Made by a program: the position numbers and the translations under genes
Sequence record: AF151674.1
Reading direction: 5' to 3' (one strand)
DNA length: 9,689 nt
Source of the DNA: Enterobacteria phage P-EibC
Part shown: positions 970 through 2,484 of the stretch, piece by piece
Position numbering within the stretch: position 1 is the first letter of the stretch
Layout: each line of letters begins with the position of its first letter
Notes under the pieces: model-generated
Told to the model about the DNA's origin: nothing
The model's database searches: none
The model's input: the letters and a program-made list of their open reading frames with translations, nothing else

Positions 970-2484
970 ATGAGTAAAAAGTTTACAATGACACTCCTGT
1001 CATCTTCTCTGGCCGGGCTTCTGGTGATGAGTGGTGGGGTGAGTGCGCAGGAAGAAAAATACACAGTGCCGTATGCCATAGGTGAAGGTAAATGGGGGAA
1101 TACCTATGAAGTTGTAAAGACAGGCGGTAATGGTAACTTCAGATACGAAGTAAAAGAGAAAAACGGCAAGAAGAGGTCACTTTTCACATTTGATTCAAAA
1201 GGGGATGTAATAATCAATGGCAGTGGCATTACGTACACAATTCATGACGGTGCGCTGAACGATTTTGCTCAAACAGCTGAGAAAAAAAAGAATGGACAGT
1301 CTCAGTCGCACAGAATGACTGATAGCGTTGTTCGTGATGTATATAACAAAGTATACAGTCTGCAGAGAACAAAAATTACAGGTTTCAGCGTCGAAGATGG
1401 GGAGAATGGGAAGGTTTCTCTGGGTAGCGATGCGAAAGCCTCTGGTGAGTTCTCAGTAGCTGTTGGTACAGGGGCCAGAGCGGATAAAAAATTTGCAACA
1501 GCAGTGGGCTCATGGGCTGCTGCGGACGGTAAACAAAGTACAGCTCTGGGAGTGGGAGCATATGCCTATGCAAATGCTTCAACAGCCGCCGGAACAGCTG
1601 CTTATGTTGATGGTTCTGCTATTTATGGTACCGCTATAGGTAATTACGCAAAAGTGGATGAAAATGCAACAGAAGGTACTGCGTTAGGGGCAAAGGCAAC
1701 AGTAACAAATAAAAACAGTGTTGCATTAGGTGCTAATTCTGTAACCACTCGTGATAACGAAGTTTATATTGGCTATAAAACCGGAACCGAAAGCGATAAA
1801 ACATACGGCACCCGTGTTCTTGGTGGCTTAAGCGATGGTACGCGTAACAGTGATGCGGCAACTGTTGGGCAGTTAAACCGGAAAGTTGGTGGAGTTTATG
1901 ATGATGTTAAAGCCCGTATAACTGTTGAGTCAGAGAAGCAGAAAAAATACACAGACCAGAAGACCAGCGAGGTTAACGAAAAAGTTGAAGCCCGCACAAC
2001 GGTTGGTGTTGATTCCGACGGAAAACTTACCCGTGCAGAAGGTGCGACTAAAACTATCGCCGTCAATGACGGTCTCGTTGCTCTGTCTGGCAGAACAGAC
2101 CGTATTGATTATGCAGTTGGTGCCATTGATGGCCGTGTCACCCGTAACACGCAATCCATTGAGAAAAACAGCAAGGCGATTGCAGCCAATACCCGTACGC
2201 TGCAGCAACATTCAGCACGTCTGGACAGCCAGCAGCGCCAGATTAATGAAAACCACAAGGAAATGAAGCGTGCAGCAGCACAGTCTGCGGCCCTGACAGG
2301 TCTGTTCCAGCCGTACAGTGTGGGTAAATTCAACGCCACGGCAGCGGTTGGTGGTTACAGCGACCAGCAGGCACTGGCAGTGGGTGTGGGTTACCGCTTC
2401 AACGAGCAGACCGCAGCGAAAGCAGGCGTGGCATTCAGTGATGGCGATGCCTCCTGGAACGTTGGTGTGAACTTCGAGTTTTAA
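970..2484 (+). CDS. Trimeric autotransporter adhesin, Eib immunoglobulin-binding family (EibC/EibD-like); YadA-type head, coiled-coil stalk and C-terminal membrane anchor
   Basis: 504-aa ORF. N-terminal signal peptide [26 protein letters not shown]|QEE. Repetitive Gly/Ala-rich head motifs ([28 protein letters not shown]) typical of YadA-like heads. Coiled-coil-like stalk ([36 protein letters not shown]). C-terminal YadA-type anchor ending ...[10 protein letters not shown]. Position right after a phage tail-fibre assembly gene and next to a SPATE matches the published eib/eaa prophage loci of ECOR-9 as I recall them. Exact paralogue not verified. Confidence 0.8.

What the first reader, a model, noticed from the sequence alone, without database searches (positions are those of the whole stretch)
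970..2484. Eib-like immunoglobulin-binding trimeric autotransporter immediately after the tail-fibre assembly gene
Head/stalk/YadA-anchor architecture, 504-aa length and position right after a phage tail-fibre module match the Eib family (EibA/C/D/E/F/G), whose members bind IgG/IgA Fc non-immunologically and confer serum resistance. The N-terminal half is markedly more AT-rich than the C-terminal anchor region, consistent with the mosaic, recombining nature described for eib genes.
Basis: partly seen in the sequence, partly recalled or inferred. Interest (0 to 1): 0.6.

Follow-up and report, generated by a model that had tools for sequence, protein, structure and literature searches.

The report
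EibC, a known antibody-binding adhesin gene

Summary
An intact ORF at 970..2484 (+) encodes 504 aa with a Sec signal peptide, YadA-head repeats and a YadA membrane anchor. An exact-sequence look-up shows the protein is EibC of E. coli ECOR-9 (UniProt Q9LA56 / AAF63035.1). The neighbours are also exact matches to phage P-EibC proteins: ORF-191C (24..611) and the serine-protease autotransporter EaaC (3317..7324).

From residue 233 to the end, EibC is 100% identical to EibD. That stretch covers the neck, both coiled coils, the saddle and the anchor. EibD's crystal structures (2XQH, 2XZR) and published mapping place IgA and IgG Fc binding in that stalk. The IgG-critical Asp-Tyr pair is present as D380-Y381.

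At DNA level the gene is a clean chimera:
- Window 1..1468 is identical to the eibE record.
- 1664..~2900 is identical to the eibD record.
- 1469..1663 is mixed.

The AT-richness is real but modest: 44.6% GC for 970-1995 against 53.8% for 1996-2484. The step falls where the segment shared by all the ECOR-9 Eib proteins compared begins.

Verdict: interpretation supported, already known, low interest. One passing item may be worth a look. The unannotated ORF-156 just downstream has a predicted fold like NarL/FixJ-type regulators.

The parts
24..611 (+). ORF-191C, a DUF4376 tail-fibre(-assembly)-type gene. It is the last tail-module gene before the eib cassette.
   Evidence: Exact match to AAF63034.1, ORF-191C of phage P-EibC. 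Pfam DUF4376, E 1e-19. PHROG 'tail fiber protein', E 1e-79.
612..969 (.). AT-rich spacer (32% GC) upstream of eibC, holding an A/T-only palindrome at 844-872. It presumably contains the eibC promoter/regulatory region, which is not defined here.
   Evidence: GC. The identical sequence is annotated stem_loop 844-872 in the P-EibE and P-EibD records. As RNA the hairpin is weak (-3.7 kcal/mol, z -0.3). No + strand sigma-70 consensus match was found.
970..2484 (+). eibC, the complete gene: 504 aa plus stop.
   Evidence: ORF. Exact match to UniProt Q9LA56 / AAF63035.1 'Immunoglobulin-binding protein EibC'.
970..1047 (+). Sec signal peptide, aa 1-26 ([26 protein letters not shown]|QEE).
   Evidence: Read from the sequence: basic N-terminus, hydrophobic core, VSA-Q cleavage motif. 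The boundary is inferred. It is consistent with the mature EibG constructs starting at Q28 in PMC12511318.
1048..1419 (+). Eib N-terminal domain (NTD, 'Eib region'), aa ~27-150. In EibC it is the EibE-type allele.
   Evidence: 100% identical to eibE at DNA level up to nt 1468. Only 60-93% identical to eibD. The NTD is described as a novel fold in PMC12511318. Boundaries are approximate.
1420..1752 (+). YadA-like head (left-handed parallel beta-roll), aa ~151-261. It contains the E/D recombination joint (nt 1469-1663).
   Evidence: Four Pfam YadA_head stretches. Aligns to the EibD 2xqh head. Mixed identity zone.
1753..1875 (+). Neck, aa ~262-302 (DNEVYIGY...DAATVGQL).
   Evidence: Identical to EibD in 2xqh. 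Boundaries inferred from the sequence motif.
1876..1995 (+). Right-handed coiled-coil stalk, aa ~303-342. In EibD this region binds IgA.
   Evidence: 100% identical to EibD. [quoted passage not shown] EibE diverges here and has an 11-residue gap; EibA lacks the segment. The exact IgA residues are recalled from Leo et al. 2011 and were not checked here.
1996..2088 (+). Saddle beta-minidomain, aa ~343-373. This is the start of the module shared by the ECOR-9 Eib proteins compared, and the point of the GC step.
   Evidence: Covered by 2xqh. Homology to eibA starts at nt 1980, and homology to eibE resumes at 1996. GC rises from 44.6% to 53.8%.
2089..2304 (+). Left-handed coiled-coil stalk, aa ~374-445, holding the IgG Fc-binding site. 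D380-Y381 (nt 2107-2112) correspond to the critical Asp-Tyr pair of EibD.
   Evidence: Identical to EibD 2xqh/2xzr. D380 is invariant in EibA/C/D/E. The EibG D391A mutation at the aligned Asp abolishes IgG Fc binding (PMC13534694). Codons GAT TAT.
2305..2481 (+). YadA-type membrane anchor, aa 446-504. Each chain contributes four strands to a trimeric 12-strand barrel.
   Evidence: Pfam YadA_anchor, E 5e-16, full length 1-60/60. Matches the YadA anchor structure 2lme, E 2.5e-18. The barrel stoichiometry is established knowledge of type Vc secretion.
2508..2537 (+). Intrinsic-terminator-like hairpin followed by TTTTT, just after the eibC stop.
   Evidence: -29.2 kcal/mol, z -4.2, 0 of 200 shuffles fold as well. 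Terminator scan hit at 2518-2534. A stem_loop is annotated at the same relative place in the P-EibD, P-EibA and P-EibE records.
2573..3043 (+). ORF-156C, a conserved companion gene of eib. Its predicted fold is a NarL/FixJ-like regulator; its function is untested.
   Evidence: Same position as orf-156A/D/E. No Pfam or NCBIfam hit. AF2 model pLDDT 87. Foldseek hits only to REC + LuxR-HTH response regulators.
3043..3225 (+). ORF-60C, a small ORF with a hydrophobic C-terminus.
   Evidence: ORF. Same position as orf-60A/D. PHROG 9340, unknown function.
3317..7324 (+). eaaC, a serine-protease autotransporter (SPATE family) and the second cargo gene of the same prophage end.
   Evidence: Exact match to AAF63038.1, EaaC of phage P-EibC. 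Pfam Peptidase_S6, E 3e-83, plus Autotransporter beta-domain. GDSGSP motif at aa 260.

Best explanation
The feature is eibC, the published immunoglobulin-binding trimeric autotransporter adhesin gene of prophage P-EibC of E. coli ECOR-9. It sits as cargo at the tail-fibre end of a lambdoid prophage integrated next to yecD/aspS.

How it works:
- The 504-aa precursor is exported by Sec using the signal peptide (aa 1-26).
- Three chains each contribute a four-strand C-terminal segment (aa 446-504) to one outer-membrane barrel, through which the passengers are threaded.
- The passengers fold into a lollipop made of an Eib N-terminal domain, a YadA-like beta-roll head, a neck, a right-handed coiled coil, a saddle and a left-handed coiled coil.
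- The stalk binds immunoglobulin constant regions without involving antigen-combining sites. IgA binds on the right-handed coil. IgG Fc binds on the left-handed coil around D380-Y381.
- The head/NTD mediates cell-cell aggregation.

Shown here: the identity with EibC, the domain content, the 100% identity of aa 233-504 with the structurally solved EibD, and the chimeric E-type/D-type origin.

Taken from the literature: Ig binding, heat-stable multimers, serum resistance, autoaggregation, and better expression in static culture.

Inferred: the exact domain boundaries and the signal-peptide cleavage site.
For: Identity:
- The 504-aa product is an exact match to Q9LA56 / AAF63035.1 'Immunoglobulin-binding protein EibC'. 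ORF-191C and EaaC are exact matches to phage P-EibC proteins.
- The window has the same register (ORF-191 at 24..611) and gene order as the GenBank records of P-EibD, P-EibA and P-EibE from ECOR-9.

Architecture and binding site:
- Pfam YadA_head and YadA_anchor.
- EibD crystal structures 2xqh and 2xzr match at E 3e-143 and 1e-26.
- EibC aa 233-504 are identical to EibD, and aa 1-166 are identical to EibE.
- D380 is invariant among EibA/C/D/E. It aligns with the Asp whose mutation in EibG abolishes IgG Fc binding (PMC13534694).

Literature:
- Two stalk regions of EibD bind IgA and IgG (PMC7247746).
- ECOR-9 carries eibA, C, D and E. Its Eib products run as multimers of >120 to >180 kDa detected with human IgG Fc, and are produced best in static culture (PMC5450701).
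- Recombinant EibC forms trimers of about 155 kDa and promotes aggregation (PMC7568254).

Prophage context: tail-fibre genes lie upstream, and dinI, yecD and aspS lie downstream.
Against: Nothing contradicts the identification. Four caveats apply:
- The two primary papers, Sandt & Hill 2000 (PMC97405) and Leo et al. 2011, are not in the held library. EibC-specific IgG/IgA binding data are therefore cited only through later papers and through identity with EibD.
- No + strand promoter consensus was found upstream, so how the gene is transcribed is not shown here.
- None of 5,426 complete E. coli genomes carries this exact allele. The best match is 89.8% identity over 86% of the gene, so it is a rare allele.
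- For EibG, serum resistance persisted in an IgG-binding-deficient mutant. The biological pay-off of Ig binding itself therefore remains open.
Confidence: 0.97

Rival explanations
1. The gene is a YadA-like prophage adhesin that does not bind immunoglobulin, like the recently described ClaA/ClaB chain-forming adhesins. On this reading it looks like Eib only in overall architecture.
For: Generic annotation pipelines call all these genes just 'YadA-like family protein'. Cla proteins show that Eib-like TAAs without IgG binding exist in E. coli.
Against: The exact match to EibC. The whole stalk is 100% identical to EibD. The IgG-critical Asp-Tyr pair is present as D380-Y381. Cla proteins share less than 50% similarity with Eib proteins and lack the critical Asp.
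Confidence: 0.01
2. The gene is EibC, but its selected function is adhesion: autoaggregation, chain or biofilm formation, and complement resistance through the trimeric fibre itself. On this reading non-immune Ig binding is a secondary or separable property.
For: An EibG D391A mutant loses IgG Fc binding but keeps chain-like adhesion and serum resistance (PMC13534694). EibC and EibD drive aggregation and coaggregation (PMC7568254). The head/NTD part is the recombining, variable part, while the stalk is constant.
Against: The Ig-binding stalk is the most conserved part of the ECOR-9 Eib proteins compared, which argues that it is under selection too. The EibG result has not been repeated for EibC. 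This reading is not exclusive of the main one.
Confidence: 0.4
3. The gene is intact but effectively silent prophage cargo in its native host, with no contribution to phenotype.
For: No + strand sigma-70 consensus was found in the 358-nt upstream spacer. Eib proteins are poorly expressed in shaken cultures (PMC4352079 and PMC5450701).
Against: Eib proteins of ECOR-9 were detected at high level after static growth (PMC5450701), although that blot does not separate EibC from EibA, D and E. The ORF is intact, has its own terminator, and its reading frame is maintained through a recombination joint.
Confidence: 0.1

Closest known systems
EibC of E. coli ECOR-9 (UniProt Q9LA56, GenBank AAF63035.1, phage P-EibC)
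   Same: Every residue, 504 of 504. The flanking ORF-191C and EaaC are also identical to the P-EibC proteins.
   Different: Nothing detectable. The window additionally reaches into the chromosome (yecD, aspS).
EibD of ECOR-9 (AAF63040.1; crystal structures 2XQH, 2XZR)
   Same: aa 233-504 are identical, and DNA 1664-~2900 is identical. The identical stretch covers the end of the head, the neck, both coiled coils, the saddle, the Ig-binding sites, the anchor, the terminator and most of ORF-156. Overall protein identity is 88%.
   Different: The N-terminal domain and most of the head differ, at 60-93% DNA identity. EibD is 7 residues longer. The literature reports a slight preference for homotypic over EibC-EibD aggregation.
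EibE of ECOR-9 (AAF63045.1)
   Same: Window 1-1468 is 100% identical. That stretch covers ORF-191, the spacer and the first 499 nt of the gene, which encode aa 1-166.
   Different: The neck and right-handed coil are divergent, with an 11-residue gap where EibD binds IgA. The stalk and anchor are only about 80% identical at DNA level.
EibA of ECOR-9 (AAF63234.1) and its prophage P-EibA
   Same: From nt 1980 (the saddle) through eaaC, the window is 98% identical to P-EibA, with the same gene order eib, orf-156, orf-60, eaa.
   Different: EibA (392 aa) has a different N-terminal domain and no YadA-like head or neck (PMC7568254).
YadA of Yersinia (prototype trimeric autotransporter adhesin)
   Same: Head-repeat and anchor families. 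The anchor matches 2lme at E 2.5e-18. The lollipop architecture and type Vc secretion are shared.
   Different: The match to NCBIfam YadA scores 109 bits, far below its 750-bit cutoff, so this is not a YadA orthologue. YadA lacks the Eib N-terminal domain, the saddle and the handedness switch, and it binds collagen rather than Ig Fc.

Membership tests
Trimeric autotransporter adhesins (type Vc secretion, Oca family) | C-terminal YadA-type membrane anchor of about 60-70 residues at the very end of the protein | tested here: met
   Pfam YadA_anchor at aa 446-504, full-length model match, 58.9 bits against a cutoff of 22.7. YadA anchor structure 2lme, E 2.5e-18.
Trimeric autotransporter adhesins (type Vc secretion, Oca family) | N-terminal Sec signal peptide and a passenger built of head, neck and coiled-coil stalk modules | tested here: met
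   The signal peptide was read from the sequence. Four YadA_head repeat stretches. Head, neck, stalk and saddle are aligned to EibD 2xqh over aa 151-411.
Trimeric autotransporter adhesins (type Vc secretion, Oca family) | Forms heat-stable trimers in the outer membrane | not testable with these tools
   Literature only. Recombinant EibC has an expected trimer of 155 kDa seen on gels (PMC7568254). ECOR-9 Eib multimers run at >120 to >180 kDa (PMC5450701).
Eib family (E. coli immunoglobulin-binding proteins EibA, C, D, E, F, G, H) | Sequence membership: clusters with named Eib proteins | tested here: met
   Exact match to EibC, Q9LA56. 88%, 85% and 58% identity to EibD, EibE and EibA.
Eib family (E. 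coli immunoglobulin-binding proteins EibA, C, D, E, F, G, H) | Conserved IgG Fc-binding segment in the left-handed coiled coil, including the critical Asp(-Tyr) | tested here: met
   aa 374-435 are identical to EibD 2xzr. D380-Y381 are present, and D380 is invariant in the four ECOR-9 Eibs. The role of the residue comes from PMC13534694.
Eib family (E. coli immunoglobulin-binding proteins EibA, C, D, E, F, G, H) | IgA-binding segment in the right-handed coiled coil (present only in some members) | tested here: inconclusive
   The whole right-handed coil (aa ~303-342) is identical to EibD, whose stalk binds IgA. The exact residues of the IgA site could not be checked, because Leo et al. 2011 and Sandt & Hill 2001 are not held.
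Eib family (E. coli immunoglobulin-binding proteins EibA, C, D, E, F, G, H) | Non-immune binding of human IgG Fc / IgA by the expressed protein | not testable with these tools
   Experimental property. It is reported for the ECOR-9 Eib proteins in papers citing Sandt & Hill 2000. The primary paper is not held.
Eib family (E. coli immunoglobulin-binding proteins EibA, C, D, E, F, G, H) | Prophage location directly downstream of the tail-fibre / DUF4376 genes, followed by an orf-156 homologue | tested here: met
   The window shares its gene order with P-EibA, P-EibD and P-EibE and with related chromosomal prophages.

The most novel reading that the evidence does not exclude
The eib cassette may carry its own, so far unannotated regulator. 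ORF-156 (2573..3043) always follows eibA, C, D and E. It has no family assignment, and its predicted fold resembles a truncated receiver domain plus a LuxR-type helix-turn-helix. It could be a phosphorylation-independent transcription factor that sets eib (and eaa) expression, for example the static-versus-shaken culture switch.

Separately, the perfectly clean eibE/eibD chimera suggests very recent gene conversion between co-resident prophages of one cell. That would shuffle adhesin heads onto a constant Ig-binding stalk.
Probability: 0.2. Interest if true: 0.35.

Novelty: already known. Interest (0 to 1): 0.08.

Why it matters
Eib proteins let E. coli coat itself with antibodies held the wrong way round. 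They also promote aggregation, chain-like adherence and complement resistance, so they matter for commensal persistence and for LEE-negative Shiga-toxin strains.

This particular gene was sequenced and named in 2000, and its stalk was solved as part of EibD in 2011, so finding it here adds no new biology. The practical value of the check is threefold:
- It shows that a sequence-only reading reached the right answer.
- It documents precisely that eibC is an eibE-head/eibD-stalk recombinant, with breakpoints at nt 1469-1663.
- It shows that a published eibC typing PCR targets the part shared with eibE.

Tried and rejected
- Primary papers. I tried to read Sandt & Hill 2000 (PMC97405), Sandt & Hill 2001 (PMC98814) and Merkel 2010 (PMC2916290). 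None is held, so the exact IgA/IgG residue ranges rest on later papers and on my recollection.
- GenBank AF151674. I recalled this as the P-EibC record, but it is not in the collections. That the window is that record is therefore only inferred, from the three exact protein matches and from the coordinate register shared with AF151675 and AF151676.
- Exact-product contig look-up for EibC found nothing. The cluster look-up, however, lists one other 504-aa member from Logan/ENA.
- Promoter scan of 600-3400 found no + strand sigma-70 match upstream of eibC.
- The annotated upstream 'stem_loop' (844-872) is not a stable RNA hairpin. I do not assign it a function.
- I considered that the GC step marks the E/D recombination joint. 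I rejected this because the joint is at 1469-1663, while the step is at about 1970-1996.
- I considered a Cla-like non-Ig-binding adhesin. I rejected this on identity and on the conserved Asp.
- The minus-strand ORFs overlapping eibC (50-110 aa) have no support and were not pursued.

Full report
**1. Observation**

The window has an intact ORF at 970..2484 on the + strand, 504 codons plus TAA. Pfam finds four YadA_head repeat stretches and a full-length YadA_anchor at aa 446-504.

A sequence search of the PDB returns two EibD fragments. 2xqh covers aa 151-411 at E 3e-143 and is nearly identical. 2xzr covers aa 374-435. The YadA anchor structure 2lme follows.

The upstream gene (24..611) is a DUF4376 protein. 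It matches PHROG 'tail fiber protein' families, and some related phage records list a 'tail fiber assembly protein' among the features under the match. A 358-nt spacer of 32% GC separates it from the ATG.

The compositional asymmetry is real but modest. GC is 44.6% for 970-1995 and 53.8% for 1996-2484 (z = 3.3). Third-position GC is 36% against 52%.

**2. Identity**

An exact-sequence look-up in the 15-billion-protein collection finds the 504-aa product under UniProt Q9LA56 / GenBank AAF63035.1, 'Immunoglobulin-binding protein EibC'. Two other ORFs are exact matches to proteins of 'Enterobacteria phage P-EibC': the 195-aa upstream ORF is ORF-191C (AAF63034.1), and the 1335-aa downstream ORF is EaaC (AAF63038.1).

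The GenBank records of the sister prophages P-EibD, P-EibE and P-EibA of E. coli ECOR-9 have the same layout. P-EibD and P-EibE even share the same coordinate register, with ORF-191 at 24..611.

The window is thus the eibC end of prophage P-EibC, continuing into the chromosome. A dinI-like gene lies at 7691..7939 (-), followed by the prophage/chromosome junction at about 8200-8225, then yecD at 8294..8893 (-), then aspS.

**3. Anatomy**

From the sequence and from the alignment to EibD, the layout is as follows.

| Residues | Module |
|---|---|
| 1-26 | Signal peptide |
| ~27-150 | Eib N-terminal domain |
| ~151-261 | YadA-like beta-roll head |
| ~262-302 | Neck |
| ~303-342 | Right-handed coiled coil |
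| ~343-373 | Saddle |
| ~374-445 | Left-handed coiled coil |
| 446-504 | Anchor |

The evidence is, with domain names as in PMC12511318 and PMC7247746. The boundaries are approximate.

A strong terminator-like hairpin follows the stop codon at 2508-2537 (-29.2 kcal/mol, z -4.2).

**4. Mosaic structure**

At DNA level, window 1..1468 is 100% identical to the P-EibE record. That stretch includes ORF-191, the spacer and the first 499 nt of eibC. Positions 1664 to about 2900 are 100% identical to P-EibD. The 195 nt in between are mixed.

At protein level, aa 1-166 equal EibE and aa 233-504 equal EibD. From nt 1980 through eaaC the window is also 98% identical to P-EibA.

The GC step coincides with the start of this C-terminal module shared by the ECOR-9 Eib proteins compared (saddle onward), not with the E/D joint.

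Hits in 50 of 5,426 complete E. coli genomes likewise match only parts of the gene: 1-810, 522-1515, 740-1515, or 1-499 at 95.8%. None carries the exact allele.

**5. Mechanism**

By established knowledge of type Vc secretion, three chains form one 12-strand barrel and export a trimeric passenger.

The literature held here supports the following:
- Eib proteins bind IgG Fc and IgA non-immunologically, form heat-stable multimers and impart serum resistance (PMC5450701, PMC7247748, PMC13652056).
- Two separate stalk regions of EibD bind IgA and IgG (PMC7247746).
- An Asp-Tyr pair in EibD is critical for IgG Fc binding, and mutating the aligned Asp in EibG abolishes binding (PMC13534694). The paper's text prints these residues as D378-Y388. 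I read this as D387-Y388, because they align with adjacent EibG residues 391-392.

With the 7-residue offset, these residues are D380-Y381 of EibC. Both are present, and D380 is invariant in EibA, C, D and E. Because the whole stalk is identical to EibD, EibC should share EibD's binding properties.

EibC has itself been expressed. It trimerises and drives aggregation, with partial coaggregation with EibD (PMC7568254). The same 2026 paper reports that serum resistance of EibG does not need IgG binding, so the two activities are separable.

**6. Comparison and novelty**

All sequence-testable defining features of the TAA and Eib families are met. The functional features are experimental and are known from the literature. 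NCBIfam's YadA model scores far below its cutoff (109 against 750 bits), so this is a TAA but not a YadA orthologue.

The finding is already known. The gene was named in 2000 and is in UniProt, reviews and expression studies. Interest is low.

**7. Passing observations**

(a) ORF-156C (2573..3043) has no Pfam or NCBIfam family and is 'hypothetical' everywhere.
- An AlphaFold model from 15 homologues is confident (pLDDT 87, pTM 0.79).
- Its top 38 Foldseek matches in the PDB are all NarL/FixJ-type response regulators: StyR, FixJ, LiaR, VraR, DesR, RcsB, EvgA, VpsT and DosR (best E 1.6e-3, probability up to 0.99).
- A profile search also touches LuxR/GerE helix-turn-helix proteins weakly.
- The receiver-like part is truncated. 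It lacks the acidic pair after strand 1 but keeps a nearly invariant Asp (D52) after strand 3.
- A 69%-identical homologue keeps the same position after a YadA-like gene in another prophage. A 55% homologue sits elsewhere without one.

(b) The published eibC PCR primers map to 1123-1142 and 1396-1415. Both lie inside the stretch that is identical to eibE.

(c) EaaC is an intact SPATE-type protease with the GDSGSP motif.

(d) The 60 bp after the eaaC stop, which include a hairpin, are inverted relative to P-EibA.

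Noticed in passing
window 2573-3043 (+): ORF-156C follows eibA, C, D and E and is 'hypothetical' with no Pfam or NCBIfam family. A confident AF2 model (pLDDT 87) matches only NarL/FixJ-type response regulators (REC-like domain plus LuxR-type HTH) at marginal Foldseek E-values (1.6e-3 and weaker). The receiver part is truncated and lacks the acidic pair, but D52 is nearly invariant. It is a possible unrecognised regulator of the eib cassette.
   Followed up: partly
window 1123-1142 and 1396-1415: The 'eibC' PCR primers published in PMC4352079 both lie in the segment (window 1-1468) that is 100% identical to the eibE record. 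That PCR therefore reports the shared C/E-type N-terminal domain rather than eibC specifically.
   Followed up: partly
window 3317-7324 (+): EaaC is a 1335-aa serine-protease autotransporter (Peptidase_S6 plus autotransporter beta-domain, GDSGSP at aa 260). It is an exact match to AAF63038.1 and 98% identical at DNA level to eaaA. It is a second virulence-type cargo gene on the same prophage arm.
   Followed up: partly
window 7326-7385: The 60 bp directly after the eaaC stop contain a hairpin at 7340-7372. They match the P-EibA record in the opposite orientation (98%), whereas the flanks match in the same orientation. This could be a small inverted segment or a bidirectional terminator.
   Followed up: no
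window 7691-8300: This is the prophage right end: a dinI-like gene (7691..7939, -), a 21-nt direct repeat at 8023-8043 / 8064-8084, and the junction with chromosomal sequence at about 8200-8225. The junction corresponds to the duplication annotated in Stx2 phages integrated at yecE. yecD and aspS follow.
   Followed up: partly
window 844-872: An A/T-only palindrome lies in the 32%-GC spacer upstream of eibC and is annotated 'stem_loop' in the sister records. It is not a stable RNA hairpin (-3.7 kcal/mol, z -0.3), so it is more likely a DNA feature, if it is anything.
   Followed up: partly
window 3043-3225 (+): ORF-60C is a 60-aa ORF whose start overlaps the ORF-156 stop and which has a hydrophobic C-terminal stretch. 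It is conserved as orf-60A/D and belongs to PHROG 9340, of unknown function.
   Followed up: no
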